From the NCBI GenBank assembly GCA_026396995.1, contig JAPLVS010000060.1, positions 1 to 53,349 on the forward strand: a stretch of DNA of 53,349 nt, read 5' to 3'. This document shows, in pieces, positions 1,080 through 14,220 of the stretch. Below the pieces are notes generated by a model. It saw only the letters and a program-made list of their open reading frames with translations. It did not search any database and had not been told where the DNA came from. A program made the translations under genes and the position numbers. Each line of letters starts with the position of its first letter. The stretch's first letter is position 1. The stretch comes from Candidatus Iainarchaeum sp. Its GTDB lineage: Archaea; Iainarchaeota; Iainarchaeia; Iainarchaeales; DTGL01.

Positions 1080-2090
1080 ATGGTTAAATTGTTGAAAGGG
1101 CAGGCAATTGAGGACCTTGAGCAAAAAATCAGCCAAAGGCTCAGGAAATTGAACGAAACAGTGGGCGAAGAGCTTGGTTTCGGCAAGCCCCCTTTCCGCA
1201 ATGCACTCGAATCCGTTGCCTTCATGAGCGGCCTGAAGCCGGCAATAGCATTCAGGATTCCTTACGACCGTGTGCGGTTTTTGGAAATAAAGGAATTCTG
1301 CAACAGGAACAATCTTTTTGCCAGGCACACTGCAGAGAAATTTGTCATCAACAGTAATACTGATTACACGAAATTTTTGCCTCTTGGAAGCGAAAAAAAA
1401 GGCGAAATCTATGTGTGCATTTCAAGTGAAAAGGAAAGGGCAGAAGCGGCCGCAAAGTCGTTTGCAAAGGACGTTGTGGTTTTCGGCAGGGCGATGGGCT
1501 ACCCTGAATGCTGCCTTGAATTCGGAGGAAGCCTTAGCAATAATGTGGGCAATGCGGAAAAAGAAAGAGGCGATTTTGTCTGGTCGAGGGCAAGAAACCG
1601 CTCTTACAGGAATTCGGAAAAATTTTCCCAATTGCTCAACGTCTTTTCTGGATTCTCCCTAATTCCGCACGTTCCCTGCCACCTTGACTGCGCTGAAAGC
1701 AAAAAATACGCGAAAAAAATGCTTGCCCTGATAAGGAAGCATGACAGCGCCCTGGCCAAAGACCTCCTTCTCTACCTGAAAATCCCGAGCCTTTTCTGGA
1801 ATTACTGCGATTACATCCTGTTTGACGGCACCGAAGAAAAAGGCGCACTGCATTATTCCGATTTGAAGTTGTACGCTGACTCCCCGAAGTTTTTCAGCCT
1901 GGCTCCGGATTACAAGGCTTCAACAAGGGCAAAGGAGGTTTATGGCTTTTTGAAGAAAGGAAACAATTTGAAGGATTCGAGGCTGTCCCTTGAAGTATTC
2001 CAAAACTCGCGCAAAACCGGCACAATCCTGAAAGAAAAGGAATTCGAGTTCTTCCTTGCCAATCCACAGAAAAGGAAAATCAAATTTTAG
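1080..2090 (+). CDS. DUF483-like Cys/His-motif protein at the edge of the Hxs cluster
   Basis: 336 aa; GRAMGYPECCLEF and LIPHVPCHLDC motifs; TTTAAA about 25 bp upstream. Confidence 0.55.
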   Translation: MVKLLKGQAIEDLEQKISQRLRKLNETVGEELGFGKPPFRNALESVAFMSGLKPAIAFRIPYDRVRFLEIKEFCNRNNLFARHTAEKFVINSNTDYTKFLPLGSEKKGEIYVCISSEKERAEAAAKSFAKDVVVFGRAMGYPECCLEFGGSLSNNVGNAEKERGDFVWSRARNRSYRNSEKFSQLLNVFSGFSLIPHVPCHLDCAESKKYAKKMLALIRKHDSALAKDLLLYLKIPSLFWNYCDYILFDGTEEKGALHYSDLKLYADSPKFFSLAPDYKASTRAKEVYGFLKKGNNLKDSRLSLEVFQNSRKTGTILKEKEFEFFLANPQKRKIKF

Positions 2091-2102
2091 CTTTGTTTGC
2101 TT

Positions 2103-2537
2103 TCAATTCTTTTCCAGTTCCACGGAATCGGATGGGTTGTTCATTTCCGTTTCATAGCATTTTTCACAGCACCATTTCAATTTCAGCGGCCTTGAACTGT
2201 CAATTGCCCCGCAGTCGGTCAGTTTCACCGAGCCTGTGTTTTGCGGCTGCAGCTGGCTTGTGATGCTTGCAATGTCTATCCCGTTCTTTTTTGGGATTGT
2301 GATTTCCGCTGAAACTATTATTTTGGCCCCGCTGTTGTAAAAAGGAACATTGAGCTTTCCTTCGATGCATTCGCTTTTGCCGTATTCGAGCACACAACCG
2401 TCATTTATTGCACCGTTCAAATCCGCTGCAGGCAAATTCACCGGATTAGTTATGTAGAAAAATATGCCGTATGTTGCGACGAACAGCAGGAAGAGCGCAG
2501 GCATCAGCCATTTGCTTTCGATTTTCCAGTCCATCAA
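2103..2537 (-). CDS. Single-pass membrane protein with a small Cys-containing extracellular domain
   Basis: N-terminal TM (WLMPALFLLFVATYGIFFYI); C-terminal WCCEKC; divergent from the 2588 gene across a shared TATA. Confidence 0.65.
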   Translation of the reverse strand: MMDWKIESKWLMPALFLLFVATYGIFFYITNPVNLPAADLNGAINDGCVLEYGKSECIEGKLNVPFYNSGAKIIVSAEITIPKKNGIDIASITSQLQPQNTGSVKLTDCGAIDSSRPLKLKWCCEKCYETEMNNPSDSVELEKN

Positions 2538-2555
2538 CCCATTTCTGTTCAGATA

Positions 2556-2563
2556 TTTATATA
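2556..2563. promoter_or_regulatory. TATA box (TTTATATA) between divergent genes
   Basis: About 25 bp upstream of ATG 2588 and about 20-25 bp upstream of ATG 2537 on the minus strand. Confidence 0.5.
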
Positions 2564-2587
2564 TCCCTTTTCCAGGCTCTTTCCCTT

Positions 2588-3514
2588 ATGGTCGAGCGCT
2601 TGGACTTAAAGCTGGGATTCAAATGCAACAACAATTGCCTCTCCTGCCCTGCAGCGCACCGCAGGCGCCTTGGCGACATGAGTACGGAACAAGCGAAAGA
2701 GCAGATTCTTGCCGGGAGGAAGGACGGCGCAATCGAAGTTGTCCTTACAGGTGGCGAGCCCACTGTGAGGCCGGACCTGGTTGAATTGGTGTGGTTTGCA
2801 AGGGAAAACGGCTATGAAAGAGTGCAATTGCAGACCAATGCCAGGATGCTTTCCTACAAATCGCTGGCAGTAAAGCTTGTTGAAGCAGGGGTAAACGATT
2901 TCTGTGTGGGACTGCATTCGGACACCGCGGAAATACAGGAGTTTTTGACCCAATGCCCAGGCTCTTTCCAGCAAACAATCCAGGGCATAAAAAACCTTGT
3001 GGCTTTGGGCCAACATGTTGCAATTAATTCGGTTGTCCACAAGCTGGATTTCGAAAGGCTCCCGAAGCGCGCAGAAATGGCTGTCGATTTGGGCGTCCAG
3101 CAATTCCAGCTCGCGTTCATACATTGCGCAGGCAATGCCATGAAAAACATCGATTTGCTTTTGCCGCGCAAATCCGAAGTCAAGCCTTTTGTGCATAAGG
3201 CGCTCGACATTGTCATTGAAGCAGGCCTAACCACAATGGTGGAAGCCTACCCTTATTGTTTCATGCAGGGCTATGAAAAATATTGCTCCGAACTCTATAT
3301 GCCGCCTTCTGAAATCAGGGATGCCGAAGGCGTTGTCGAGGACTTTGATGTTGTGCGCAAGGAAAGCGGCAAACTGAAAGGGCCGGAATGCCCGAAGTGC
3401 AGGTTTTTTGCAGTATGCGAAGGGCCCTGGAAGGAATACCCTGAAAAATTCGGCTGGAGCGAATTTGTTCCCATGAAAGGAAAAAAGGTCTTGAGGCAGG
3501 AGGACTTGCTTTGA
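2588..3514 (+). CDS. Radical SAM protein, HxsC-like paralog 1
   Basis: CNNNCLSC (CxxxCxxC), TGGEPT, QTNARM, EAYPYC, C-terminal CPKC-x5-CEG. ATG 2588 preferred over the ORF-track start at 2471. Confidence 0.9.
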   Translation: MVERLDLKLGFKCNNNCLSCPAAHRRRLGDMSTEQAKEQILAGRKDGAIEVVLTGGEPTVRPDLVELVWFARENGYERVQLQTNARMLSYKSLAVKLVEAGVNDFCVGLHSDTAEIQEFLTQCPGSFQQTIQGIKNLVALGQHVAINSVVHKLDFERLPKRAEMAVDLGVQQFQLAFIHCAGNAMKNIDLLLPRKSEVKPFVHKALDIVIEAGLTTMVEAYPYCFMQGYEKYCSELYMPPSEIRDAEGVVEDFDVVRKESGKLKGPECPKCRFFAVCEGPWKEYPEKFGWSEFVPMKGKKVLRQEDLL

Positions 3515-4098
3515 AACGGAAAACCGCCGCGCCCAAAAGGCAATATCTTGCCCTTATTGCCTTTTTTTCCGCCCTGTTTGTTTTCGGGTTGTTTTTGCTT
3601 TACATCAATATGAATTCAGGGCAGGGCAACGGAAACGGAGCACAGGCTTCTGCAACTCCGACTTCTTCAGTGCAGCCAACCAAAACTCCGGCGCCCACAC
3701 CGCAGCCTGAAGAAGAGATGGATTTGGGTTTTTATGTGAAAAAAGCCCTTGAAAAAGGTGAAGAGGGATGTGGTGATTCCCAGGAATGCCTGCGGCTTTT
3801 TTCTCTTGCTGAAAAAAACTGTTCTGGTTCCACAAATGAAAAGATTTTCTGCCTTGCTGTTTTCGATTCCAACAAAGATTACTGTGGATGGCTTAGCCTT
3901 GAATGGTATAAGGCCACCTGCATTGCGTTTTTGGATGGAAATGTGCAAGAATGCCTCGGGCTTAAGGCCGAAGCGGAAAGAATGCTCTGCGTGAAAGACT
4001 TGGCAGCCAACCTCGAGGAAATGGACTGCAATGCGCTTCCATCTGAGTTTGCGGCTATCTGCGGCGAGGAAAGGGCGAAAGGCACCATGGAAGAATAA
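3511..4098 (+). CDS. Membrane-anchored protein with a Pro/Thr linker and Cys-pair helical repeats
   Basis: TM segment, PTKTPAPTPQP linker, then repeated C-x(6-10)-C units (10 Cys). Confidence 0.75.
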   Translation: MKRKTAAPKRQYLALIAFFSALFVFGLFLLYINMNSGQGNGNGAQASATPTSSVQPTKTPAPTPQPEEEMDLGFYVKKALEKGEEGCGDSQECLRLFSLAEKNCSGSTNEKIFCLAVFDSNKDYCGWLSLEWYKATCIAFLDGNVQECLGLKAEAERMLCVKDLAANLEEMDCNALPSEFAAICGEERAKGTMEE

Positions 4099-4194
4099 GC
4101 TATGGATTGCTGCAGCCGGTGTTAGGTATTTATTTTTTTGGCATGATTAGTTCCTTGCCCTGATTATAGTCAGGAAACCGCCAAAGGCCCCACC

Positions 4195-5026
4195 ATGATT
4201 GAATTTTTTTTGGTTCCAGTTTTTGCAATCAGCCTAATCGCTTCAATCGAGGACTTCAAAAAAGGCATTATAAGGAACCATTTCATCCTTGCATTGCTTG
4301 CCCTTGGCATGCTCTTCCAGTTCTTTTCAGGAACCAGCCTGCCTGCGCTTGCAACTGTTTTGTCAGGCGCGCTTGCGATTTCCTTCCTTTTCTGGCTTGC
4401 CGGTTTATGGCCTGCCGGGGACGCAAAGCTTTTCTGGGCGTATTTTTTCTTTTTCCCGCCGGTGCTGCTCGGCGCGCAGTCGCTTTTGATGGATTTCCTG
4501 ACCAATATTTTCGTGCCGATTTTTTGCTTCATGTTTTTTGTCATACTTTACAGGAGCAGGCTCGGCCTTATCGGCGAGGCATTGAAGCCCCCGGGAATTT
4601 TACACGATTTCATTTGCGTTGATGCTTTTCAAAATAATCGCTGTTTTCGTTTTCTTCAGGTTTTTCATATTGTACCTTGCGTTCAAGCTTTACACGGACA
4701 AGGTGAAAATAAGCGAGCTCAGGGAAGGAATGGCGCCTGCGGAAGGCATTTTCAAGAAAGGCGATTCTTTTGAGAAAGAGGAATTCCTGCAGTCCTGCTT
4801 CACAGGCTATTTTTCGCAGAAAACAAGGAAATTCATCCACGGCCAGGAATCGCTTTCCGAAGAGGACGTGGAAAAAATCAAGGCGCTTGAAAAGCAGGGC
4901 AAATTCAAGTTCGATTCCCTGCTTGTCCACCAGGCACAGCCTTTCGCCTTGTTCATTTTCGCCGGCTTCCTTCTCACTCTTCTTTGCGCAGGCAGCGTTG
5001 TGACGTTTTTAAGGCTAGCCATATGA
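4195..5026 (+). pseudogene. A24 (FlaK/PibD-type) prepilin peptidase, split by a +1 frameshift at about 4588-4592
   Basis: The N-half has both catalytic Asp motifs (SIED, WPAGDAKL). The C-half in the next frame has the FlaK-type C-terminal domain (KVKISELREGMAPAE...QPFALFIFAGFLLT). Deleting one C from the C5 run fuses them into 276 aa (LKP-REFYTISF). Confidence 0.75.
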
Positions 5027-5061
5027 TTCTTTTTTTAATTGTTTTTTTGCCTGTTGTTTGT

Positions 5062-6018
5062 ATGTCGGTCAAGCGTTTTGACATCAAGCTCGGCTTCAAG
5101 TGCAACAATAACTGCCTTTGCTGCCCTGCCGCGGACAAAAAGTTTTTGGGCGACCAGGATTTGGCAAGCATAAAGCAAGAAATAACACTGGGTTTCAACG
5201 AAGGTTCCAGGGAAGTTGTGCTGACAGGCGGAGAGCCGACCGTCAGGAATGACCTCCTTGAAATAGTGGAATTCTGCAAAAGCACTGGTTTTGAATTTAT
5301 ACAACTCCAAACCAATGGCAGGATGTTTTCCTATGAAGGGTTCTGCAAAAAACTCATTGAAGCCGGAGTCAATGAGTTCGGCCCGAGCCTGCACGGCCCG
5401 AATGCAAAAATACACGATTATTTCACGCAATCGCCCGGTGCATTTGACCAGGTCGTGCAAGGGATAAAAAACCTCAAGGAACTAAACCAGAGGGTTATAA
5501 TAAATTCAGTAATCACAAAATTCAATTACCGCCTTTTGCCTGAAACAGCAAGGCTGTTTGTCTCTTTAGGTGTCGACCAGTACCAGTTCGTTTTCCCGCA
5601 CCTTGTCGGAAACGCGTGGAAGAATGCCGACCTCATCTGCCCAAAAAAATCCGAAGTGGAGCCTTTCCTCAAGGGAGGCCTTGAAGTCGGCATAAATGCA
5701 GGCATTCAGGTAATGGTTGAAGCATATCCTTTCTGTTTCCTTAAAGGGTTTGAAGTCTGCAGTTCCGACCTCTATATGCCGCCAGCCGACACTGCAGATG
5801 CGACAGGAATCCGCAAGGACCATCATTTGCTGCGGAGGGAAACAGGCAAGGTCAAGCACGCCAAATGCAAAAAATGCCGCTTTGGTCTTTTATGCGAAGG
5901 CCCCTGGAAGGAATACATTGCAAAGTTCGATTGGGATGAATTCAGGCCGGTTTCAGGGAAAAAAATAAAAAGCAAGGAGGAACTTTTTGAAACCTTTGGC
6001 AAGACAAAAGTTAAGTGA
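5062..6018 (+). CDS. Radical SAM protein, HxsC-like paralog 2
   Basis: KLGFKCNNNCLCC, TGGEPT, QTNGRM, EAYPFC, CKKC-x5-CEGPWKEY; closely similar to 2588..3514. Confidence 0.9.
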   Translation: MSVKRFDIKLGFKCNNNCLCCPAADKKFLGDQDLASIKQEITLGFNEGSREVVLTGGEPTVRNDLLEIVEFCKSTGFEFIQLQTNGRMFSYEGFCKKLIEAGVNEFGPSLHGPNAKIHDYFTQSPGAFDQVVQGIKNLKELNQRVIINSVITKFNYRLLPETARLFVSLGVDQYQFVFPHLVGNAWKNADLICPKKSEVEPFLKGGLEVGINAGIQVMVEAYPFCFLKGFEVCSSDLYMPPADTADATGIRKDHHLLRRETGKVKHAKCKKCRFGLLCEGPWKEYIAKFDWDEFRPVSGKKIKSKEELFETFGKTKVK

Positions 6019-6072
6019 AAAGGCGGCGGCGCTGTTTAACCTTTAAAATAGGTTGCCTTGTAAGGTATTTTC

Positions 6073-7524: not shown

Positions 7525-7548
7525 ATTTATGGCAGCACAGGTGCCAAT

Positions 7549-8481
7549 GTGACTGAAGCAATAAAAACTGCAATCGTTTTGGGCTATAACTGCAACAACA
7601 ACTGCAGGTTCTGCCTCAGCCGGCACAAGAACGATTCAGTCAGGCCGCTTGGCACAAAAAAAGTCAAAGAAGAAATTGTTTTGGCGAGAAAGCGCGGTTC
7701 CGACAGGCTGGATTTTGTCGGCGGCGAGCCGACACTGAGGAAAGATTTGCCAGAACTGGTTTCCTTTGCAAAGGAAAACGGCTTTAAGTCGGTAAGAATC
7801 ACGACAAACGGCAGGATGTTTTCGCAAAAAAAATTCGCAGAAGAGCTTGTCGGCGCAGGGCTGACAATGGCGATTTTTTCAATCCACGGCCATACCGCGG
7901 AATTGCACGATTACCTTACAAGGGTCGATGGCTCTTATTCCCAGGCAGTCCAAGGGATGAAAAATGTAAGGGAGTTGGCTGAAGGCAGGCCTGACTGGGA
8001 GCAGATGGCAACAAACACGGTTATGGTCAGGCCGAACCTGAAATTCCTTGCACAAATAGCCGAACACAACATTGCGCTCGGTTCCAAAAACCTTGAATTC
8101 ATTTTCCCAGACCCGCAGGGCAATTGCTGGGATAATTTCGAGGAACTCGTGCCAAGGCTCCCGGAACTGATTGAACCTATGCGGAGTGTAATAAAGGCCG
8201 GGCAAAAGCACGGCCTGCACAGTTGCCTTATGAGATATTTGCCATTGTGCTATATGTACGGCTATTTCGAATACCTGAGCGAGTATTTGGCGGTCCGCCG
8301 CCAGAGGGAGCAGCACATAGGGCCGGACATATTTGACCTTGAAGTCGAAAAGTCGAGGCGCACTATCGCGAGGGTAAAAGGGCCGCAGTGCGCCGGCTGC
8401 AAGCGCTCTCCCGCATGCGAGGGCGTATTCAAGGAATATGTCCTGAAAAGGGGGTTTGAGGAACTGGTGCCGATGCCCTGA
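7549..8481 (+). CDS. Radical SAM protein, HxsC-like paralog 3
   Basis: CNNNCRFC, VGGEPT, TTNGRM, RYLPLC, KGPQCAGC-x5-CEG. Confidence 0.9.
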   Translation: MTEAIKTAIVLGYNCNNNCRFCLSRHKNDSVRPLGTKKVKEEIVLARKRGSDRLDFVGGEPTLRKDLPELVSFAKENGFKSVRITTNGRMFSQKKFAEELVGAGLTMAIFSIHGHTAELHDYLTRVDGSYSQAVQGMKNVRELAEGRPDWEQMATNTVMVRPNLKFLAQIAEHNIALGSKNLEFIFPDPQGNCWDNFEELVPRLPELIEPMRSVIKAGQKHGLHSCLMRYLPLCYMYGYFEYLSEYLAVRRQREQHIGPDIFDLEVEKSRRTIARVKGPQCAGCKRSPACEGVFKEYVLKRGFEELVPMP

Positions 8482-8516: not shown

Positions 8517-10358
8517 TCAATAAATATAACAATCCGGCTTTTTTCTTTCCGCGCTTTCCAGGAAATCTTCGAACAACGCATGCCTGTCCGGATATTTTTC
8601 TAGTTTTTTTCCTGCCGCGCCGTTGCAGAAAACCACGATGCTGCTTTGCACCGAAAACATTTCCCGGCACTCAAAGCAGTCTTTAGGGATCCTTTTAAGA
8701 AGGCGCTCCGGCAGGTCGGCCATTCCAGGGGGAAGCGGTTTTGTTACATTGAAAAGCATATTTTCCTTTTCAAGTTCCATGAAGAATGCTGCCATCGCAG
8801 CAAGGTCTTTTTTTGTTGTTTTTTCGCTTATAGTCGGGGAAAAAAGATAGAAGCGGAACCCTGTTTTCTGCATTTTTTTGATTTTTTTCAATTCAGAGAC
8901 AAAGCTGAAATTTTCAGGTTCGAGCGAAACAAAAGCGCTTTCCTTCGGAATGTTGTTCTGCGCTGTTTCCAGTGGAAATTCATGGAGGGAGGTGCAATAG
9001 GTCATGCTGCCAGGCCCTATCCTGATGAACGGCTTCAGGGCGATAACTTCCCTTTCAATTACCTGTTCGGCAAGTGCCCTGAAGTTCCTCTGGTTACGGA
9101 GGCATTTTGCCTTGTCCGGCTTGAGGATGCTGCGGTTTTTGTGGAGGCTTGCAAGCGGGCAGTCGCCCCAGCAAAGCTTGAAATCGCATTTTTTGCATTC
9201 CACGCGCTCCCTGAAACCGCGGAATTCCGAAATCTTTTTTTCGTCGATTTCAATCCTGCTGCTGGCTGCATCATATCTCCCGATGGACAGTTCGGCCAGG
9301 CCAGGATTGTGCTTTAAGTCTTCCTGGCTTGCATACATTTCGCAGGCATTGATTGCGCCGTCTGCGCCCATGCAGAAAAGGCTGCCGAGCGGGCAATGCC
9401 TTGTGCCTTCTTCCCGTAACAGGTTTACCGAACCTGTGAAAAAGGCCACGCCGAACTCGGCACAAAGGTCGGCAAACCTGCCGATTGCAAGCGTTTCTTT
9501 TTCAGGCGATTCCCTCCAGCTGTCGTGTGCGCGCCCGAAATTCATGAGCGGCCCCAATCCTATATGCCTTGAACTGAGGTCGTAAAAATAAGCGAAAATT
9601 TCCTTTTCCCTGCCGAAAACCTTTTCGGTGAGGGTCAGCCTTGTCTTGAAAGGCCTGCCTTTTGCAGCAAACTTCCTTATGGTTGCCTCGACAATCCGGC
9701 TGCTCCCGCCGCCGCCACTCAAAGGCCTTTGTGCGTCCTGGATTTCCGGCGGCCCGTCGCAGGAAACCTGTGGTTCCGGAATATTGGCGGAAATCCAGTC
9801 AATGGTCTTGCCATCAATCATGCCGTTCGTCGAGAACTCCAGAGTGCCCAGCATGTTTTTTTCTTTCATACAGGCAACGGTTTTTTTTAGAAGTTCGAAG
9901 CTTTTCGTCTGCTCTCCTGGCGCCGTTATCACCAACCCGACTTTTTGGTCTGGCTTGTAAAGGAAGTCAAGACAGGTTTTTACCTGCTTCCAGTCCGGCG
10001 AGGTGGTTTTTCTTTTCTCCCCCCCGTGGCAAAAACAGTAGGTGCAGGCAAGCCCGCAGTCAGTGCTCAAAGCCGGCGCAAAGCCAGTGAAGTTTGGCAG
10101 CAGTTCCTTGAAGGGCGGCTTTTTTGCCTTGTTTTTTTCAATAAGGCCTGCGCAGGCATTGAATGCTTCTCCGTCAAGCAGGAGGATTGTATTCGGTTCC
10201 TTTGCAAAAAAACAGCGGAAACCATTTTTTTCGAAAAGGAAAACAGTGAAGCCGAGCCTTCCAATCGCCCTCTTTATTTCCTCTTCAGTGGAAAGCACCG
10301 CGGTGCTCTTTCCGACCACGGTGTATGACAAAAGCCTCATGTAGCCCCCTACTGGCAT
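8517..10358 (-). CDS. Radical SAM/SPASM peptide-maturase-like protein with an extra C-terminal Cys domain
   Basis: CGLACTYC, STNG, VSCDGPPEIQDAQRP, SPASM-type HCP...ACE...CKKCDFKLCWGDCP, then an extension of about 170 aa with CFEC. Confidence 0.85.
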   Translation of the reverse strand: MPVGGYMRLLSYTVVGKSTAVLSTEEEIKRAIGRLGFTVFLFEKNGFRCFFAKEPNTILLLDGEAFNACAGLIEKNKAKKPPFKELLPNFTGFAPALSTDCGLACTYCFCHGGEKRKTTSPDWKQVKTCLDFLYKPDQKVGLVITAPGEQTKSFELLKKTVACMKEKNMLGTLEFSTNGMIDGKTIDWISANIPEPQVSCDGPPEIQDAQRPLSGGGGSSRIVEATIRKFAAKGRPFKTRLTLTEKVFGREKEIFAYFYDLSSRHIGLGPLMNFGRAHDSWRESPEKETLAIGRFADLCAEFGVAFFTGSVNLLREEGTRHCPLGSLFCMGADGAINACEMYASQEDLKHNPGLAELSIGRYDAASSRIEIDEKKISEFRGFRERVECKKCDFKLCWGDCPLASLHKNRSILKPDKAKCLRNQRNFRALAEQVIEREVIALKPFIRIGPGSMTYCTSLHEFPLETAQNNIPKESAFVSLEPENFSFVSELKKIKKMQKTGFRFYLFSPTISEKTTKKDLAAMAAFFMELEKENMLFNVTKPLPPGMADLPERLLKRIPKDCFECREMFSVQSSIVVFCNGAAGKKLEKYPDRHALFEDFLESAERKKPDCYIY

Positions 10359-10387: not shown

Positions 10388-10690
10388 TCAAGGTGATCGT
10401 GGAACAGTGCTTGCAGCTTTCTCGCATTCCGCCCGCCAGGCGGCATCAATCAGATATGAACAGAATACTGGTTCTTTATAGGAAACCGCGAGGTTTTGTA
10501 TTTCAAAATCGGTTTCCGAAGCATTTTTGTCGAAGTTTGCGAGCAAAAAGCTTTCCTTGAAGGCAGGGCAGAGGCCTGCGTTCCCATAAGGCCTCGTCTC
10601 AGTCCTCGGGAACACAATGCCTGCAAAAAGCCCGAGTATTGCTGCAAGCGCGAGGAGTGTCAGGTAATTGCCTGCCTGTTTTTTGTCCAT
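10388..10690 (-). CDS. Small membrane-anchored Cys-containing protein
   Basis: MDKKQAGNYLTLLALAAILGLFAGIVF TM; FCSYLIDAAWRAEC; start coupled to the stop of 10690..11076. Confidence 0.65.
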   Translation of the reverse strand: MDKKQAGNYLTLLALAAILGLFAGIVFPRTETRPYGNAGLCPAFKESFLLANFDKNASETDFEIQNLAVSYKEPVFCSYLIDAAWRAECEKAASTVPRSP

Positions 10691-11076
10691 CAGACACCAC
10701 CGCATGTTTTCTCTGCCAGCGCCGCTTCGGCCAGGCAGAGCGACCTGTAGTGCCCTAAAGGCAGCGTATTGCAAAATTCCTTGTCGCGGGTGAATACGGC
10801 AGTGCAGGTTATTTTCAGCGCTTTGCTTTCTATGATGCCGCAGTACATTACATCGCGTTCCTTTATGGCTCTTTCGTAAACGCACTTTTGGTAAGCGATT
10901 GAACTCCTGTCGAATGTCATGCACCGGCCGGTGTCTATGCTGTCGCTGAACTTAATGCCCTCCACACGGACCGTTTTCACAGGCTTGTTGAGGAAAAAAA
11001 AGCCCAGGGCGGCAAATGCAAAAAAAACAAGCACTGCCGCAAAGGCCAGTTTCATGCCGATTTTTGTCTGGCCCAT
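10690..11076 (-). CDS. Small membrane-anchored protein with Cys-pair repeats
   Basis: TM, then C-x10-C type units (YCGIIESKALKITC, FCNTLPLGHYRSLC); directly downstream of hxsA. Confidence 0.75.
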   Translation of the reverse strand: MGQTKIGMKLAFAAVLVFFAFAALGFFFLNKPVKTVRVEGIKFSDSIDTGRCMTFDRSSIAYQKCVYERAIKERDVMYCGIIESKALKITCTAVFTRDKEFCNTLPLGHYRSLCLAEAALAEKTCGGV

Positions 11077-11085
11077 TTTAAATCC

Positions 11086-11463
11086 TCACGTTGCGAACTC
11101 TGCCGCGCACCCGCACTGGGCGTGCGAGGCATGGTCCGAGTGTGCTGAGTGTGATTCGTGCACTGAGTGTGCTGAGTGTGATTCGTGCACTGAATGCTCC
11201 GAGTGTGAGTCGTGGGAGCCGTGCGAGGCGTGCGATGCGTGGTGGCCGTGCTTTGAAATCATTGTGCCGGAACTCCACCCGACGCTGAAATAGTTCGAGT
11301 GGGCGGCCTGCACTTCAGGCAAAAGGTTCAAAAGCGAAATTGATGCCAGGAAGGCCCCGACTGAAAGCATTTTTTGTTTCGAGATTGAGCCCTTCTCTTC
11401 CACTAAAAAAGAGGAAATTGCCCTTTTTATTTCAGGGATGTATTTGCTTTTCTTTTTTGGCAT
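11086..11463 (-). CDS. hxsA: His-Xaa-Ser repeat precursor peptide (HxsA-like)
   Basis: 125 aa: charged leader, hydrophobic segment, then HGH-HAS-HAS-HGS-HDS-HSE-HSV-HES-HSA-HSV-HES-HSA-HSD-HAS-HAQ-CGC; next to hxsC and hxsD. Confidence 0.9.
   Translation of the reverse strand: MPKKKSKYIPEIKRAISSFLVEEKGSISKQKMLSVGAFLASISLLNLLPEVQAAHSNYFSVGWSSGTMISKHGHHASHASHGSHDSHSEHSVHESHSAHSVHESHSAHSDHASHAQCGCAAEFAT
11138..11191. repeat. Perfect 27-bp tandem duplication in the hxsA core
   Basis: GAGTGTGCTGAGTGTGATTCGTGCACT x2. Confidence 0.95.
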
Positions 11464-11493: not shown

Positions 11494-11505
11494 TTATTGC
11501 TTTGG

Positions 11506-12360
11506 CTATCGCACGGCCTTGAACTCTTCTTCGCCGGCAAGCGGAAGGTAACTTATCCAGATTCTGGAACACAATCCCTTGACAGAGCAGGCTGTGCAGT
11601 TTTTCGAGAACGTGAGCTCTTCCTCCTGTTTTGTGACGCCGGCTGACATTGGCCAGTATTTTCTTCCGATCACGCAGTGGGGAAAATGGAAAAGTCTTAC
11701 CTCGAAACCGTTTTCTGCGAGCACACCCGCCGCCTTTTCCACAAAGGGAGCGGCAGCCGAATACCTTACAAACAGTTTTTTGCGGTAAATGAATGCGTTG
11801 CCTGTGTATTTCATGTTTATAAAAACAATCCTTGCAACTCCTTTCAGGTTTTTTGAAATGAATTCCGCTGTTTTTTCCAGTTCCCTGAAGTTTTCCCTGT
11901 TAACTATGACCCGCAATTCCACTTTCAGCCCGAATTCCACCAGGTTTTTTATGCCTTCGATTGTTTCAGCCCAGCTTCCGGCGGCCCTTGTGATTTTGTC
12001 GTGTTTTTGCCTTTTGTGGCTGTAAATCGGGATGCCGATTCTGAAATTGCCCAGGCCAAGGAATTTTTTTGCATATTCTTTGTCTGCAAATTTCCTGCCA
12101 TTGGAAACAAGGAATATTTCCTTCTGCGGCCACTTGCCCCTTGCAAATGACAGCAGCCCAGCCAGGTCTTCCAAAAGCGTCGGTTCTCCCCCTGTAAAGC
12201 CCATATATTGTGCCTCTTCGGACCGGCTTATTTGTTCTTCCAGTTCTTTCTGGCTTGGGTCGGGCATGAGCCTCATCTGCCTTGTGTCAAAAATGCAGGA
12301 AATGCAGTCGTTGTTGCACTGGAATGTTAACGCGCAGTCCATTTGACTACCAGCCCTCAA
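11506..12360 (-). CDS. hxsC: His-Xaa-Ser system radical SAM maturase HxsC
   Basis: CNNDCISC, FTGGEPTL, SNGRKF, GIPIYSH...HDKITRAAGSW..TIEGI, VELRV, FPHC, CTACSVKGLC; between hxsD and hxsA. Confidence 0.8.
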   Translation of the reverse strand: MRAGSQMDCALTFQCNNDCISCIFDTRQMRLMPDPSQKELEEQISRSEEAQYMGFTGGEPTLLEDLAGLLSFARGKWPQKEIFLVSNGRKFADKEYAKKFLGLGNFRIGIPIYSHKRQKHDKITRAAGSWAETIEGIKNLVEFGLKVELRVIVNRENFRELEKTAEFISKNLKGVARIVFINMKYTGNAFIYRKKLFVRYSAAAPFVEKAAGVLAENGFEVRLFHFPHCVIGRKYWPMSAGVTKQEEELTFSKNCTACSVKGLCSRIWISYLPLAGEEEFKAVR

Positions 12361-12448
12361 GAAAAGCCGTTTCGATCAATATGTGTAAGCCGGCACCTGT
12401 TTTAATTCATTTCCTGCCTCGCCTGCTTCGGCCCCGGGCAACAAGCAG

Positions 12449-12706
12449 TCAAAGGATGCTGCCCGCGCCTTTCCTGCACGCGATTACAAGGTTGCAGAAT
12501 TCCCAGGCAAGCCCTTCCAAATCCGTTTTCCCGCGCGGCTTGAACCTGACAACAAAATACTCCTTATCTTTGCTTTTGTCTGCTTTCAGGCCGCCTTCAA
12601 GCATGCCGATTGCATTGTCGACTGCTTTTTCCTGGTAAATGCCTTCCCTGAACCGTATTTCGACAGAATTAGCTTTCCTGTCTGCCTTGAATTGCATTCC
12701 AATCAC
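12449..12706 (-). CDS. HxsD-like small protein
   Basis: IYQEKAV...YFVVRF...LAWEFCNLVI resembles the HxsD fold; coupled to the upstream hxsD. Confidence 0.6.
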   Translation of the reverse strand: MIGMQFKADRKANSVEIRFREGIYQEKAVDNAIGMLEGGLKADKSKDKEYFVVRFKPRGKTDLEGLAWEFCNLVIACRKGAGSIL

Positions 12707-13188
12707 TTAGGCTTCTTCAGCCCTTTTGCTTTTTCAGGCACCCAAGGCGCTGAAATGCCTTCAGGGTCCTTTATATACAAATTTTCGTCCTCTTCAGGCA
12801 TTTTTATTTTTTTGGCAGCGCCTGCAATCTCTTTTTCCATTGAGCACTCAGGGCAGTACTCGTCCTCGATGTTTGTGGCAAGCGCCCTCTTGATTATTGC
12901 CTCCCTTACGGCCTGGTTCCTTGCGGCTTGGGCGATGTAAACGGAATAATTGACCAATTCGTTCCCGAAATCTTTTGCAAGCGTTTCCAGCGCCTTTTTG
13001 CTTATTTTTTCATCCTTGGCCTGCATTGCCACCATCAAGCCCTTTTCCGGGTCGCCGTCAAGGAAAAAATACGCCTTGTCAAGGAAAACGTAAGCGGCCG
13101 AATAAACCACTTCAAGGGAGTAAACCTTGGGGTTTACAGAAATGATTGCCTTTCCCTCGCGCGGAAATAATTCAATGTTTTTCATCAT
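12703..13188 (-). CDS. hxsD: His-Xaa-Ser system protein HxsD
   Basis: VYSLEVVYSAAYVFLDKAYFFLD...DFGNELVNY...VREAIIKRAL...DPEGISAPW. Confidence 0.8.
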   Translation of the reverse strand: MMKNIELFPREGKAIISVNPKVYSLEVVYSAAYVFLDKAYFFLDGDPEKGLMVAMQAKDEKISKKALETLAKDFGNELVNYSVYIAQAARNQAVREAIIKRALATNIEDEYCPECSMEKEIAGAAKKIKMPEEDENLYIKDPEGISAPWVPEKAKGLKKPK

Positions 13189-13293
13189 TAGAATCAGCTC
13201 TAGTTAAGAATAAAAGGCTATTTTAACCGCGGCAAAAATCGGCTGGCATAACTGCCAAAAGTATTAAAACCATTCAATGAGTTTAATTATTTT

Positions 13294-14220
13294 ATGGAAA
13301 GTGAAAAATGGGGCGGAGTGATTATAGGGCCTTATTGCAGCAACCGCTGCCTTTTTTGCGGCGGACGCGGAAAGATTCCAGATTCGGAATTGAAGCAGCA
13401 GGAAAACAATGTTTTCCGAAATTTGATTGAATTTAAAGGCAGGGGCATTAAAAAAGTGGAGATTTCAGGCGGCGACCCAATCGAATACAGCGAAATAGCC
13501 AACCTTATAAAATACATCAAAAAAATCGGCTTCGAGAAAGTGCACTTGTCCACGCACGGAACAAGGCTTTCCGACGAAGCCTTCCTGGATGAAATAATCC
13601 ATTCGGGGCTTGACATTCTCAGGATTCCGTTATACGGTTCAAAAGCCAAAATCCATGATTCCGTCACCCAATCCAAGGGAAGCTTCCGCAAAACCCTGAA
13701 AGGCATCAAAGGCATCCTTGAAAAATCTGAAATCCATATCAAGATTAGTTCCCTTATCGTGCAGCAAAACAAGAACGATTTGACAGGCATTACCGACTTG
13801 GTTGGCGGCCTCGGCATAAAGGATTTTTATTTTTCAATCCCCTGCCTTGTCGGCAGAAAAGACCTGTCCTATTACATTCCATTAAAGGATTTGGGGCCTT
13901 ATGTGAAAAAAGCATACGATCATTCGTCAAAGGAAGGTTTCGGCGCCAATTTCAAGGAAATCCCTTACTGTATCTTCTCCAAGGCGGACAGAAATAGAAT
14001 AGAAAACACCAGCAAACCGCCTGACCTTGGCAAATATTGCCAGCCGCCGGCAAGATTGAAAACCCAGGTAAAAGACCTTCCTTCCTACCGTGTCAAGGCC
14101 AAAACAGAAATGTGCAAAACATGCAAGTGCTTTGATTTCTGCGACGGCTTCTTTTTGAACGATATCACCAACTTTGGAACTGGGAACATCAAGCCTATCC
14201 TGGAACTTGAATCGCCTTAA
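13294..14220 (+). CDS. Radical SAM protein, divergent HxsC-like paralog 4
   Basis: CSNRCLFC, SGGDP, STHG, IPLYGSKAKIHDSVT, EIPYC, CKTCKCFDFCDG. Confidence 0.88.
   Translation: MESEKWGGVIIGPYCSNRCLFCGGRGKIPDSELKQQENNVFRNLIEFKGRGIKKVEISGGDPIEYSEIANLIKYIKKIGFEKVHLSTHGTRLSDEAFLDEIIHSGLDILRIPLYGSKAKIHDSVTQSKGSFRKTLKGIKGILEKSEIHIKISSLIVQQNKNDLTGITDLVGGLGIKDFYFSIPCLVGRKDLSYYIPLKDLGPYVKKAYDHSSKEGFGANFKEIPYCIFSKADRNRIENTSKPPDLGKYCQPPARLKTQVKDLPSYRVKAKTEMCKTCKCFDFCDGFFLNDITNFGTGNIKPILELESP

What the first reader, a model, noticed from the sequence alone, without database searches (positions are those of the whole stretch)
1080..14220. Expanded archaeal His-Xaa-Ser RiPP cluster: seven radical SAM enzymes, a prepilin peptidase and membrane Cys proteins around one precursor
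Seen: within 13 kb there is one His-triplet peptide, seven CxxxCxxC radical SAM genes (2588, 5062, 6073, 7549, 8517, 11506, 13294), two HxsD-like genes, an A24 peptidase, a DUF483-like gene and four small TM/Cys proteins, in several separately oriented transcription units. Established: the canonical Hxs system (TIGR03976-03979) is a compact hxsA/B/C/D cassette with two radical SAMs, described mainly in bacteria. Inference: this is a much more elaborate variant in a probably genome-reduced DPANN archaeon. It would make a multiply modified, exported poly-His peptide, for metal binding, host interaction or defence. It is the best candidate for an undescribed system in the window.
Basis: partly seen in the sequence, partly recalled or inferred. 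Interest (0 to 1): 0.92.

Follow-up and report, generated by a model that had tools for sequence, protein, structure and literature searches.

The report
Expanded archaeal His-Xaa-Ser maturation locus
A small-genome DPANN archaeon carries a much enlarged version of the His-Xaa-Ser system, with seven radical SAM enzymes and its own prepilin-type peptidase around one His-rich, membrane-targeted protein, a layout shared by many DPANN archaea that I did not find described in print.

Summary
Window 1080-14220 encodes an HxsA-type precursor, HxsB, HxsC, HxsD, an HxsD-like protein, four further HxsC-like radical SAM enzymes, a 613-aa SPASM radical SAM enzyme, an A24 peptidase, a DUF483-like protein and four small single-pass Cys-rich proteins.

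The organism is a 1.35-Mb Iainarchaeota (DPANN) genome.

The accessory genes co-occur with hxsAB:
- An intact A24 gene lies within about 1.5 kb of hxsB in 14 of 15 loci from relatives.
- It lies within 3 kb in 30 of 38 archaeal loci from several DPANN phyla.
- These peptidases form their own clade.

- The window's A24 gene lacks about 72 codons. Independent contigs carry at least part of the missing piece, so this looks like an assembly fault.
- The locus is half of a tandem pair, because contig C24 ends in the window's first 23 bases, in frame.
- Comparably expanded clusters exist in Elusimicrobia and CPR bacteria.
- NCBIfam already models related parts: HxsA3/A4, HxsC4 and HxsD_rel.

Bacterial HXS was shown in 2026 to block phage DNA entry. 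The function here is untested. I rate this a new variant of a known kind.

The parts
1..1032 (+). Flank: C-terminal part of a DUF2341 surface protein. It continues in frame from the end of contig C24, giving about 680 aa once joined.
   Evidence: Pfam DUF2341 58.3 bits. The last 23 nt of C24 equal the first 23 nt of the window, the 23-mer is unique in the genome, and the joined frame stays open to codon 680.
1080..2090 (+). DUF483-like cytoplasmic protein, 336 aa, with invariant GYPxCC...N...HxPCxxxC (four Cys and one His; probable metal site).
   Evidence: No direct Pfam or NCBIfam hit. Homologues P0007-P0009 carry PF04467. Alignment A2. AF2 model pLDDT 87.8 with no PDB fold match at E<=0.001. 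Weak relatives lie inside Hxs loci L020, L026, L029, L038, L093, L102 and L111.
2103..2537 (-). Small single-pass Cys-rich protein, 144 aa, 6 Cys.
   Evidence: Hydrophobic segment 9-33. Paralogue on C24 at 37.5% identity. Relatives in 10 of 15 loci of the family, usually right after the rS4-type gene. No family hit.
2588..3514 (+). HxsC-like radical SAM enzyme rS1, 308 aa.
   Evidence: NF038332 HxsC4 148.5 bits (cut-off 500), TIGR03977 103.5 bits. CxxxCxxC at residue 13, GGE, and C-terminal CxxCx5C.
3511..4098 (+). Small single-pass Cys-rich protein, 195 aa, 10 Cys.
   Evidence: Hydrophobic segment 10-37. Relatives on C24 and in L023, L031 and L032. No convincing family hit: only Colipase-like at E 0.045, 14.3 bits against cut-off 27.
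4195..5026 (+). Hxs-linked A24 (prepilin-type) aspartyl peptidase. It is split in this assembly at 4587/4588 and lacks about 72 codons.
   Evidence: Peptidase_A24 31.8 bits and Arc_PepC 41.4 bits on the two pieces. D20 and D76 (AGDAK) are present; these two Asp are invariant in 30 orthologues. The pieces align to orthologue residues 3-133 and 206-323. Contigs of two runs stop at 4573 or start matching at 4588 with 162/138 unlike bases before it.
5062..6018 (+). HxsC-like radical SAM enzyme rS2, 318 aa, paralogue of rS1 at 53% identity.
6073..7524 (+). HxsB, radical SAM/SPASM maturase, 483 aa.
   Evidence: TIGR03978 411.7 bits, above cut-off 370.
7549..8481 (+). HxsC-like radical SAM enzyme rS4, 310 aa.
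   Evidence: NF038332 162.5 bits. 56% identical to the C24 paralogue. Same type in 12 of 15 family loci.
8517..10358 (-). 613-aa radical SAM/SPASM enzyme rS5 (PapB/SCIFF-maturase-like) with a C-terminal extension of about 180 aa that matches no family.
   Evidence: PapB NF047865 69.1 bits; SPASM TIGR04085 25.1 against 27. Lies downstream of hxsA here and in family loci. Co-occurs with Cys-bearing HxsA tails. The Atlas lead for residues 430-613 is weak.
10388..10690 (-). Small single-pass Cys-containing protein, 100 aa.
   Evidence: No Pfam hit.
10690..11076 (-). Small single-pass Cys-rich protein, 128 aa, 7 Cys.
   Evidence: No family hit.
11086..11463 (-). HxsA-type precursor, 125 aa. Parts in order: leader with invariant E23-x-G25-x-I27-S-K29; hydrophobic segment 31-51; PEVQAA; conserved HSNYFSVGW block; period-3 His repeat; CGC tail.
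   Evidence: NF038309 HxsA3 42.2 bits (cut-off 65) and NF038313 HxsA4 29.8 bits (cut-off 55). Alignment A4..
11506..12360 (-). HxsC, radical SAM enzyme, 284 aa.
   Evidence: TIGR03977 is the best hit at 187.9 bits, below cut-off 267.9.
12449..12706 (-). HxsD-like small protein, 85 aa.
   Evidence: NF038315 HxsD_rel 44 bits, above cut-off 41.
12703..13188 (-). HxsD, 161 aa.
   Evidence: TIGR03976 54.5 bits, above cut-off 50. AF2 pLDDT 83.
13294..14220 (+). HxsC-like radical SAM enzyme rS7, 308 aa, the most divergent of the set.
   Evidence: NF038332 80.6 bits, TIGR03977 76.4 bits. Orthologue in a same-genus genome (L023, 431 bits) and a relative in a Saccharibacteria Hxs cluster (L102, 241 bits).
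14361..21461 (+). Flank: 2366-aa DUF2341 surface protein. It lies beside hxsD within the family only.
   Evidence: DUF2341 81.6 bits. A giant relative lies divergent from hxsD in L020, L028 and on C24. No relative was seen in loci of other phyla.

Best explanation
This is a DPANN-type, expanded His-Xaa-Ser (Hxs) maturation system for a small His/Ser-rich envelope protein.

Shown by sequence:
- HxsA has a conserved cytoplasmic leader (...SFLVEEKGSISK), one hydrophobic segment, an outer domain with His at every third residue, and a short Cys tail.
- HxsB, HxsC, HxsD and an HxsD-like protein are present.
- Four extra HxsC paralogues each keep the CxxxCxxC motif and a C-terminal CxxCx5C.
- An A24 aspartyl peptidase with both catalytic Asp belongs to a clade found only beside hxs genes.

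Inferred:
- In the cytoplasm the radical SAM enzymes modify HxsA. HxsC-type enzymes work with HxsD-type partners, as shown for E. coli HxsC-HxsD.
- The several HxsC paralogues install several or repeated modifications on the His/Ser repeat and the conserved block before it.
- The PapB/SCIFF-like SPASM enzyme cross-links the Cys tail.
- The dedicated A24 peptidase then removes the leader at the invariant Gly on the cytoplasmic face of the membrane, as prepilin peptidases do with class III signal peptides.
- The modified His-rich domain ends up outside the membrane. It is either anchored by its helix or released after the PEVQAA site.
- The DUF483-like Cys4/His protein and the small Cys-rich membrane proteins are lineage-specific helpers of unknown role.

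Function: by homology with bacterial HXS the most likely single role is an envelope barrier against entry of viral DNA (my estimate about 0.35). Metal binding and cell-cell contact are not excluded.
For: Core membership: HxsB 411.7 bits (cut-off 370), HxsD 54.5 (cut-off 50), HxsD_rel 44 (cut-off 41). HxsC and HxsA3 are the best hits for their genes.

All seven radical SAM proteins keep CxxxCxxC and GG[ED]. The five HxsC-type proteins keep a C-terminal CxxCx5C.

Conservation in relatives:
- HxsB was found in 10 of 12 other genomes of the same family but in only 2 of the 28 other families sampled in the order.
- In 15 loci from 12 related genomes, an intact A24 gene (345-361 aa) lies within about 1.5 kb of hxsB in 14.
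- In the same 15 loci an rS4-type gene is present in 12, an rS1/2-type gene in about 10, the 144-aa Cys protein in 10, and an rS5-type gene at >=100 bits in 7.

Wider set: of 80 loci fetched with an HxsB profile, 31 of 38 archaeal loci have an A24 hit, 30 of them within 3 kb of hxsB. Four of the 7 without a hit are cut less than 2.4 kb upstream. Five of the 38 are the same contigs as.

The own genome has only 3 A24 genes in 1.35 Mb, so adjacency by chance is about 2% per locus (my estimate).

A24 clade: 30 Hxs-linked A24 proteins from several DPANN phyla form one side of a branch (SH-aLRT 97) against 10 other A24 paralogues of Iainarchaeota genomes. D20 and D76 are invariant in them.

HxsA leader: E-x-G-x-I-[ST]-K is invariant in 26 archaeal precursors.

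Predicted complex of A24 with HxsA residues 1-70: weak support.
- Median score 0.59 against best control 0.00.
- The mark was reached by 58 of 80 solved complexes and 2 of 110 mismatched pairs.
- At 0.60 or under it was reached by only 7 of those 80 and by both mismatches that passed.
- The runs agree in at least 78% of contacts, and partner pLDDT is at least 60.

Cys tail: the rS5-type enzyme is present in 9 distinct loci, and 8 of these have >=2 Cys in the HxsA repeat plus tail. Among the 37 HxsA rows without it, 7 do (two duplicate rows removed). The C24 paralogue has no Cys tail and no rS5.

Bacterial precedent (PMC13128918, sections 8-11 read):
- HxsB, HxsC and HxsD are all needed for a non-canonical N-terminal cleavage of HxsA.
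- A +8 Da modification was mapped to an HxS repeat.
- HxsC binds HxsD.
- Mature HxsA is exported and blocks phage DNA entry.
Against: - No experiment or expression data exist for this locus.
- The leader motif does not fit the usual class III signal pattern (the pattern is recalled, not tested): Ser/Lys/Arg follow the Gly, and six or seven partly charged residues precede the hydrophobic segment.
- The same ..EEG[KR]I[ST]K leader occurs in Myxococcota and Bdellovibrio loci that have no linked A24 gene. The motif may therefore serve recognition by HxsB/HxsD rather than cleavage.
- The complex prediction is only weak support.
- Three archaeal loci with more than 9 kb upstream lack a linked A24 gene (L041, L048, L053).
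- The window's own A24 gene is not intact as assembled.
- HxsC (187.9 against 267.9) and HxsA (42.2 against 65) are below NCBIfam cut-offs.
- HxsD gave no significant fold or sequence match, so a leader-recognition role for it is not shown.
- Loci of kin are not independent. Seven of the nine rS5-positive loci are from one family.
- Near-universal presence with conserved synteny inside the family fits a housekeeping surface role at least as well as a defence role.
Confidence: 0.68

Rival explanations
1. The product is a metal-binding surface peptide or protein (nickel, zinc, copper or iron capture, storage or buffering). The radical SAM enzymes shape a poly-His/Cys chelator rather than an antiviral barrier.
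For: - HxsA has 17 His and 26 Ser in 125 residues, with His in strict period 3, plus a CGC tail.
- The locus also encodes several Cys-rich extracytoplasmic proteins and a Cys4/His protein.
- The system is kept in 10 of 12 other genomes of a genome-reduced family, which fits a housekeeping need.
Against: - No metal transporter, metallochaperone or metal regulator was recognised among the locus genes.
- The only characterised homologous system acts on phage DNA entry and its HxsA binds DNA (PMC13128918, section 9).
- Distribution across the order is patchy, 2 of 28 other families.
Confidence: 0.15
2. HxsA is a pilin-like or fibre-forming surface protein. It is cut by its prepilin-type peptidase and assembled into a filament or trimeric fibre used for contact with the host cell, which DPANN archaea depend on.
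For: - A dedicated A24 clade is linked to hxs in 30 of 38 archaeal loci.
- The precursor has an N-terminal leader, an invariant Gly and a hydrophobic helix.
- In one Woesearchaeota locus (L098) HxsA carries a C-terminal Peptidase_S74 domain, the trimerising chaperone of endosialidases (46.8 bits against 22). Three close relatives of that protein also carry it.
- Within the family, giant DUF2341 surface proteins flank the loci.
Against: - No pilus assembly ATPase or platform gene was seen among the ORFs matched in the fetched loci. The compact form is only A24-HxsD-HxsD_rel-HxsB-HxsA-radical SAM. This was not searched for specifically.
- The residues after the Gly are charged, unlike known archaeal pilins (recalled).
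- The S74 fusion is confined to one small clade of four proteins.
- Synteny with the surface giants does not extend beyond the family.
Confidence: 0.12
3. The product is a secreted RiPP-type antimicrobial or signalling peptide. It would be released after signal-peptide cleavage at the PEVQAA site and act on other cells.
For: - The architecture is typical of RiPPs: a short precursor with leader, several radical SAM maturases including a PapB/SCIFF-like SPASM enzyme, and a peptidase.
- There is an AxA-like site after the hydrophobic segment.
Against: - No exporter or immunity gene was recognised in the locus.
- The precursor is conserved, including its core block HSNYFSVGW, across a family, and two paralogous copies are kept. 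This is unlike fast-evolving bacteriocins.
- E. coli HxsA acts as a cell-bound protein (PMC13128918).
Confidence: 0.05

Closest known systems
Bacterial HXS antiphage system, HxsA/B/C/D (TIGR03976-03978 plus HxsA). Function shown in E. coli by Li et al. 2026, PMC13128918 (abstract and sections 8-11 read). First defined by Haft and Basu 2011 (recalled; seen only as a citation in PMC9062424).
   Same: - HxsB and HxsD are above the curated cut-offs, and HxsC is the best hit for its gene.
- The substrate has His-Xaa-Ser repeats and an N-terminal export segment.
- The substrate is expected to be processed at its N-terminus and exported.
   Different: - Seven radical SAM enzymes instead of two.
- A second HxsD-type protein.
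- A dedicated A24 peptidase. In E. coli the enzyme that cuts HxsA is unknown.
- The precursor is 125 aa with a ..EEKGSISK leader and no peptidoglycan-binding domain.
- The host is archaeal. The paper reports 99.7% of its HxsA-defined systems in Pseudomonadota and 99.8% with four genes.
NCBIfam variant models HxsA3 (NF038309), HxsA4 (NF038313), HxsC4 (NF038332) and HxsD_rel (NF038315).
   Same: - The same leader type as HxsA3/HxsA4.
- HxsD_rel is matched above its cut-off (44 against 41).
- HxsC4 is the best hit for four of the extra radical SAM enzymes.
- HxsA4 is above its cut-off for precursors of Woesearchaeota, Bdellovibrio, Elusimicrobia and Saccharibacteria loci.
   Different: - The window's HxsA is below both cut-offs: 42.2 against 65 and 29.8 against 55.
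- The HxsC-like enzymes score 81-163 bits against a cut-off of 500.
- No relevant NCBIfam model matched five intact Hxs-linked A24 peptidases at E<=0.01, nor the DUF483-like or Cys-rich proteins.
- I found no publication on these variants.
Archaeal class III signal peptidases of family A24 (PibD, FlaK, EppA).
   Same: - Peptidase_A24 plus Arc_PepC domains.
- Both catalytic Asp.
- A multi-pass membrane protein.
- The candidate substrate has a Gly just before a hydrophobic helix.
   Different: - A separate clade from the other A24 paralogues of the same genomes, with the lowest Pfam scores among them.
- The substrate motif E-x-G-x-I-[ST]-K is not the usual [KR]-G-hydrophobic pattern (recalled).
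- The gene is linked to radical SAM maturases instead of pilus or archaellum genes.
Thioether-forming SPASM radical SAM maturases of Cys-rich RiPPs (PapB ranthipeptide and SCIFF maturases).
   Same: - The 613-aa enzyme's best matches are PapB (69.1 bits) and related peptide maturases, with a SPASM-like Cys set.
- It co-occurs with Cys in the HxsA tail.
   Different: - Scores are far below every cut-off.
- It has an extra C-terminal region of about 180 aa.
- The chemistry is untested.

Membership tests
His-Xaa-Ser (Hxs) system | HxsB radical SAM/SPASM maturase (TIGR03978) | tested here: met
   411.7 bits against cut-off 370, model positions 5-466 of 466.
His-Xaa-Ser (Hxs) system | HxsC radical SAM maturase (TIGR03977) | tested here: inconclusive
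   It is the best hit for 11506-12360 and nearly full length (positions 30-286 of 292), but 187.9 bits is below cut-off 267.9.
His-Xaa-Ser (Hxs) system | HxsD small protein (TIGR03976) | tested here: met
   54.5 bits against cut-off 50.
His-Xaa-Ser (Hxs) system | Precursor with tandem His-Xaa-Ser repeats encoded in the cluster | tested here: met
   Seven strict H-x-S, with His at every third residue over about 40 residues. Only two such ORFs exist in the genome, both inside Hxs loci.
His-Xaa-Ser (Hxs) system | Compact four-gene cassette, order hxsD-B-C-A (99.6% of bacterial systems per PMC13128918, section 10) | tested here: not met
   About 17 genes in at least four transcription units. hxsB lies on the opposite strand from hxsD, hxsC and hxsA.
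NCBIfam HxsA3 / HxsA4 precursor families | Score above the curated cut-off (65 / 55 bits) | tested here: not met
   42.2 and 29.8 bits. The leader motif is shared.
NCBIfam HxsC4 (NF038332) | Score above the curated cut-off (500 bits) | tested here: not met
   148.5, 150.7, 162.5 and 80.6 bits for the four extra HxsC-like enzymes.
Peptidase family A24 (prepilin / class III signal peptidase) | Peptidase_A24 domain with the two catalytic Asp | tested here: met
   PF01478 31.8 bits against 26.5. D20 and D76 (AGDAK) are present in the window's N piece and invariant in 30 orthologues.
Peptidase family A24 (prepilin / class III signal peptidase) | Intact open reading frame | tested here: not met
   About 72 codons are missing and the frame changes at 4587/4588. 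Contigs of two runs carry unlike sequence before 4588, and its last 30 bases read on in the C-piece frame and resemble the orthologue (my hand translation). An assembly fault is therefore likely.
Peptidase family A24 (prepilin / class III signal peptidase) | Cleaves its substrate after a Gly preceding a hydrophobic helix | not testable with these tools
   There is an invariant Gly 6-7 residues before the helix. The complex prediction gives weak support only: 0.59 against control 0.00.
Radical SAM superfamily | CxxxCxxC cluster motif and a Radical_SAM domain in all seven proteins | tested here: met
   The motif is present in 7 of 7. PF04055 is above its cut-off in 6 of 7; the 613-aa protein scores 26.9 against 29.5 but matches PapB at E 3.8e-19.
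DUF483 (PF04467) | Direct match to the Pfam model | tested here: not met
   No hit at E<=0.01. Homologues at E 2.8e-28 to 3e-18 carry PF04467. Atlas neighbours carry it in 13-34% of members.

The most novel reading that the evidence does not exclude
DPANN archaea, and in looser form CPR bacteria and Elusimicrobia, have their own ancient branch of the Hxs system. In it a dedicated prepilin-type A24 peptidase acts as the leader peptidase of a radical-SAM-modified surface protein. That would be the first case of a class III signal peptidase serving a RiPP-like maturation pathway. It would also name the enzyme class behind the unexplained non-canonical N-terminal cleavage of HxsA in the bacterial antiphage system. 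The mature His-rich protein, carrying several radical SAM modifications, would guard the cell membrane of these tiny episymbionts against incoming viral DNA.
Probability: 0.3. Interest if true: 0.8.

Novelty: new variant of a known kind. Interest (0 to 1): 0.62.

Why it matters
Until 2026 the Hxs system was a bioinformatic curiosity. It is now a proven bacterial antiphage system, but both its chemistry (+8 Da on an HxS repeat) and its processing protease are unknown.

This locus, and the roughly 30 DPANN loci like it, add four things:
- The system has a deep archaeal branch. The published survey, built on HxsA of the enterobacterial type, reports 99.7% of its systems in Pseudomonadota.
- The archaeal branch brings its own A24 peptidase. 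That gives a concrete, testable candidate for how HxsA is cut.
- The core can be extended in modules: HxsC paralogues, and a SPASM enzyme that tracks a Cys tail. This offers natural variants for working out the chemistry.
- Genome-reduced DPANN archaea spend about 26 kb, close to 2% of a 1.35-Mb genome, on two copies. That argues for an important envelope function in organisms that live attached to other cells.

Tried and rejected
- One search was a mistaken Pfam scan of a 33-aa fragment and means nothing.
- PADLOC (2023) gave only generic radical SAM likeness to viperins for HxsB, HxsC and rS4, and nothing for the other seven proteins sent. It predates the HXS paper, so this says little.
- Fold search of the DUF483-like model (pLDDT 87.8) and of the HxsD model (pLDDT 83) found no PDB match at E<=0.001. 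The weak top matches for HxsD are small alpha+beta proteins such as Rpb11, Pcc1 and YbjN/ExsC. The HxsD profile against PDB sequences gave 0 hits at E<=10. A PqqD-like recognition fold for HxsD is therefore not supported, but also not excluded.
- The Atlas search of residues 430-613 of the 613-aa enzyme gave only unnamed clusters and a 17% SPASM lead.
- No RNA holder was listed for the locus, so expression could not be examined.
- I considered that the A24 gene is a true pseudogene or a programmed frameshift, and rejected that as the first choice. The break is a loss of about 72 codons, not a one-base slip, and it coincides with ends of independent contigs. A real deletion in part of the population is not excluded.
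- I considered recent archaea-bacteria transfer as the source of the locus. The HxsB tree (FastTree, 83 rows) separates 40 archaeal-type rows from 43 bacterial rows on a branch with support 100. Two rows labelled bacterial (L043, L062) sit in the archaeal part. No root or AU test was done.
- I considered a collagen-like (Gly-X-Y) reading of the repeat because of weak hits to collagen-like adhesins in (GSH)n precursors. The window's repeat has no Gly register, so I dropped this for this locus.
- The DUF483 literature search returned only other DUF numbers that begin with the same digits.
- Supplementary files of PMC13128918 could not be seen. They may list the rare non-Pseudomonadota systems and unusual gene orders.
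- The viral contig scan found 25 HxsB relatives at 34% identity or less. I did not analyse them further.

Full report
WHAT IS THERE

The window is contig C31 of a 1,346,962-base genome in 81 contigs, 92.8% complete. Between 1080 and 14220 I find 17 genes.

On the + strand:
- 1080-2090, a 336-aa protein.
- An apparent six-gene unit, 2588-8481: rS1, a 195-aa Cys-rich membrane protein, an A24 peptidase, rS2, HxsB and rS4.
- 13294-14220, rS7.

On the - strand:
- 2103-2537, a 144-aa Cys-rich membrane protein.
- An apparent seven-gene unit, 13188-8517: HxsD, an HxsD-like protein, HxsC, HxsA, two small Cys-containing membrane proteins and a 613-aa radical SAM enzyme.

NCBIfam places these as follows:

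| Gene | Model | Bits | Cut-off |
|---|---|---|---|
| HxsB | TIGR03978 | 411.7 | 370 |
| HxsD | TIGR03976 | 54.5 | 50 |
| HxsD-like | NF038315 | 44 | 41 |
| HxsC | TIGR03977 | 187.9 | 267.9 |
| HxsA | HxsA3, NF038309 | 42.2 | 65 |

The four extra small radical SAM enzymes hit HxsC4 (NF038332) best, at 81-163 bits against a cut-off of 500. The 613-aa enzyme hits PapB-type SPASM peptide maturases at 69 bits. All seven keep CxxxCxxC and GG[ED], and the five HxsC-type proteins keep a C-terminal CxxCx5C.

THE PRECURSOR

HxsA is 125 aa. Its parts, in order, are:
- a basic N-terminus;
- the motif SFLVEEKGSISK;
- one hydrophobic segment, residues 31-51;
- PEVQAA;
- a conserved block, HSNYFSVGW;
- His at every third residue over about 40 residues (7 strict H-x-S, 17 His, 26 Ser);
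- a tail with two Cys.

In 26 archaeal precursors the residues E-x-G-x-I-[ST]-K are invariant. The same leader type occurs in bacterial precursors of Elusimicrobia, CPR and Myxococcota loci. It is what NCBIfam calls HxsA3/HxsA4: HxsA4 is above its cut-off for 5 of the 10 precursors I scanned from other loci, though not for the window's. Only two ORFs in the genome carry four or more consecutive HxS, and both are HxsA genes.

A SECOND LOCUS, PROBABLY ADJOINING

Contig C24 carries a paralogous locus at 93.9-104.8 kb: HxsA, HxsB, HxsC, HxsD, an HxsD-like protein, three HxsC-like enzymes, a B12-binding radical SAM enzyme, a methyltransferase and two Cys-rich membrane proteins. Identity to the window's counterparts is 50-61% for the core proteins. 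It has no A24 gene.

C24 ends with the same 23 bases that start the window. That 23-mer occurs nowhere else in the genome. The surface-protein frame that runs off C24 continues in frame into the window's first ORF, giving a 680-aa DUF2341 protein. Only two contig pairs in the genome show such an end overlap of 20 bases or more. The two loci therefore very probably form one tandem region of about 26 kb, with 13 radical SAM genes and two precursors.

THE A24 GENE IS BROKEN ONLY IN THE ASSEMBLY, MOST LIKELY

Peptidase_A24 matches an ORF in frame 1 (4195 onward), and the archaeal A24 C-terminal domain matches frame 2 (open from 4586). This is not a one-base slip. The two pieces align to residues 3-133 and 206-323 of the same-genus orthologue, so about 72 codons are absent.

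Logan contigs of two runs from one study were laid on the locus. One contig stops at 4573. Another starts to match at 4588 and carries 162 (X1) or 138 (X2) unlike bases before that point. No listed contig bridges 4574-4587. Read by hand in the C-piece frame, the last 30 of those unlike bases give ten residues that continue into the C piece. Over 19 aligned residues, 11 are identical to the orthologue just before its residue 206. The 30-mer is not in the binned genome.

I conclude that at least part of the missing middle of the gene exists in the sample and the assembly dropped it. A deletion variant in part of the population cannot be excluded. The N piece keeps both catalytic Asp, D20 and D76 in AGDAK.

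DO THE ACCESSORY GENES BELONG?

Within the order: HxsB is found in 10 of 12 other genomes of the same family, but in only 2 of the 28 other families sampled in the order. Overall 13 of 41 genomes match, counting the own genome.

In the family: I fetched 15 HxsB loci from 12 of these genomes and mapped them with the window's and C24's proteins.
- An intact A24 gene of 345-361 aa lies within about 1.5 kb of hxsB in 14 of 15. The exception is the orthologue of the C24-type locus.
- An rS4-type gene is in 12.
- An rS1/2-type gene is next to hxsB in about 10.
- The 144-aa Cys protein is in 10.
- An rS5-type enzyme (>=100 bits), usually right after hxsA, is in 7.
- The DUF483-like protein is in 3, and the 195-aa Cys protein is in 3.
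- The two distant families have a compact form: A24, HxsD, HxsD-like, HxsB, a 72-73-aa HxsA and one radical SAM enzyme.

Beyond the order: a scan of one genome per species with an HxsB profile confirmed 549 relatives, and the best 80 were kept. The closest named ones are 'Candidatus Iainarchaeum' MAGs. Others are Aenigmatarchaeota, Woese-/Nanoarchaeota, Nanohaloarchaea and MAGs labelled Methanosarcinales. Bacterial ones are Elusimicrobia, Myxococcota, Saccharibacteria and other CPR, and Omnitrophota.
- Of the 38 archaeal loci, 31 have a hit to my A24 profile, 30 of them within 3 kb of hxsB.
- Of the 7 without a hit, 4 are cut less than 2.4 kb upstream and 3 have more than 9 kb upstream.
- Five of the 38 are the same contigs as.
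- Among the 42 other loci, 10 have a hit, mostly weak (29-86 bits), lying inside multi-radical-SAM clusters of Elusimicrobia and CPR.
- By chance, with 3 A24 genes in 1.35 Mb, about 2% of loci would have one that close.

A24 paralogues:
- Each of five relatives has 2-4 A24 genes, and the Hxs-linked copies have the lowest Pfam scores.
- In a tree of 40 A24 proteins, the 30 Hxs-linked ones fall on one side of a branch (SH-aLRT 97) against 10 other paralogues. Eleven loci were given, and one yielded no ORF hit.
- The other paralogues all come from Iainarchaeota genomes, so the test is one-sided.
- No relevant NCBIfam model matched five intact Hxs-linked peptidases.

Other accessory genes:
- rS1/2-type enzymes (>=150 bits) occur in 13 of 38 archaeal and 15 of 41 bacterial loci.
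- rS4-type enzymes occur in 6 archaeal and 13 bacterial loci.
- The Cys-rich membrane proteins recur only in Iainarchaeota-like loci.
- The number of radical SAM genes per fetched locus ranges from 1 to 7 in archaea and 1 to 9 in bacteria. The window is at the top of the archaeal range but is not unique.

HOW IT PROBABLY WORKS

In E. coli (PMC13128918, sections 8-11 read):
- HxsB, HxsC and HxsD are all required for a non-canonical N-terminal cleavage of HxsA and for defence.
- A +8 Da change was mapped to one HxS repeat.
- HxsC binds HxsD.
- Mature HxsA is periplasmic, binds DNA and stops phage DNA entry.
- The cutting enzyme is not known.

By homology, I take the archaeal core to modify HxsA in the cytoplasm.

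The dedicated A24 peptidase is a membrane aspartyl protease that, in its known relatives, cuts after a Gly on the cytoplasmic side of a hydrophobic helix. HxsA offers exactly one invariant Gly, 6-7 residues before its helix. In the compact loci HxsA is the only candidate substrate I recognised (the matched ORFs there are A24, HxsD, HxsD-like, HxsB, HxsA and one radical SAM enzyme). A predicted complex of the peptidase with HxsA residues 1-70 gave weak support:
- median 0.59 against best control 0.00;
- the mark was reached by 58 of 80 solved complexes and 2 of 110 mismatches;
- at 0.60 or under it was reached by only 7 of those 80 and by both passing mismatches;
- the runs agree in at least 78% of contacts, and partner pLDDT is at least 60.

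Two points count against this. The motif is not a textbook class III signal. It is also conserved in bacterial loci without a linked peptidase, so it may be a recognition motif for the maturases.

The 613-aa SPASM enzyme tracks Cys in the HxsA tail. Of 9 distinct loci with such an enzyme, 8 have two or more Cys in the repeat plus tail. Of the 37 HxsA rows without it, 7 do. Seven of the nine are from one family, and the independent cases are a Nanoarchaeota locus and a Saccharibacteria locus. The C24 precursor has no Cys tail and no such enzyme. A thioether-type cross-link is the natural guess, by analogy only.

The DUF483-like protein has invariant GYPxCC, N, HxPC and C residues and a confident model without a PDB counterpart. 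Its role is open.

WHAT IT IS FOR

Nothing here tests function.
- For an antiviral envelope barrier: homology with bacterial HXS, and patchy distribution across the order.
- For a housekeeping surface role (metal binding, cell contact): near-universal presence and conserved synteny inside the family, two maintained copies, neighbouring giant DUF2341 surface proteins (family-level synteny only), and a Peptidase_S74 trimerisation domain fused to HxsA in one Woesearchaeota clade.

My odds are about 0.35 antiviral barrier, 0.15 metal binding, 0.12 fibre or contact, 0.05 secreted peptide, and the rest unknown.

COMPARISON AND NOVELTY

The locus belongs to the Hxs kind: HxsB, HxsD and the repeat substrate are met. 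It fails the compact-cassette definition and the curated cut-offs for HxsC, HxsA3/4 and HxsC4.

In the HxsB tree, 40 archaeal-type rows separate from 43 bacterial rows on a fully supported branch. The window's and C24's copies sit in an Iainarchaeota group (FastTree, midpoint root only).

Literature searches for 'His-Xaa-Ser' with 'radical SAM' (5 papers), for the Hxs gene names (46 papers, of which 5 concern this system, two of them versions of one work) and for 'prepilin peptidase' with 'radical SAM' and 'precursor peptide' (0 papers) found nothing on archaeal or A24-linked Hxs systems. The library lacks most subscription journals, and the supplements of the 2026 paper were closed. NCBIfam's variant models show that curators have seen parts of this.

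I therefore rate it a new variant of a known kind. The dedicated peptidase, the modular paralogue set and the DPANN-wide spread are the new points.

Noticed in passing
window 1-23 and the end of contig C24 (L008:19931-19953): The last 23 bases of contig C24 are identical to the first 23 of the window. The word is unique in the genome, and the surface-protein frame runs on in frame to give 680 aa. The two Hxs loci are therefore probably tandem in one region of about 26 kb.
   Followed up: partly
window 4574-4588: The A24 peptidase gene lacks about 72 codons here. Contigs of two public runs end at 4573 or begin to match at 4588, with unlike sequence before it that reads like the missing part. 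This is a likely assembly deletion.
   Followed up: yes
L098:6850-7422 (Woesearchaeota MAG): This HxsA-type precursor carries a C-terminal Peptidase_S74 domain (chaperone of endosialidase, 46.8 bits). Three close database relatives do too. This hints that the repeat protein can form a trimeric fibre.
   Followed up: partly
L024:2266-3729 (same genus as the window) and L082:3311-4825 (Paceibacterota, CPR): In both, HxsA is fused after the repeat to a similar C-terminal region of about 330-350 aa that has no Pfam match. The two start alike (a Cys-Pro-Phe stretch followed by NN[IV]LPESE). An archaeon and a CPR bacterium thus share the fusion.
   Followed up: no
L043 (labelled Aminicenantes) and L062 (labelled Clostridia): These two contigs carry bacterial labels, but their HxsB falls inside the archaeal clade. 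L043 also has an archaeal-type A24 gene (259 bits). This could be mis-binning or transfer.
   Followed up: no
L118-L142 (IMG/VR contigs): Twenty-five viral or proviral contigs encode HxsB relatives at 22-34% identity to the window's. They are presumably bacterial-type systems on prophages.
   Followed up: no
window 44325-44505 (+): A tRNA match spans 181 bases for a 71-position model, so the gene probably has an intron.
   Followed up: no
window 10919-11293 (+): A 124-aa Cys/Glu-rich ORF lies antisense to hxsA. It is the mirror of the His/Ser repeat and is most likely not a gene.
   Followed up: no
L008:3854-10121 (contig C24 89.8-96.1 kb): Upstream of the second Hxs locus lie a GT2 glycosyltransferase, an HpnJ-like B12-binding radical SAM enzyme, a PMT_2 glycosyltransferase and a KedN5-like B12-binding radical SAM methyltransferase. 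Similar genes recur next to Hxs loci in L022 and L026 and in several other phyla.
   Followed up: no
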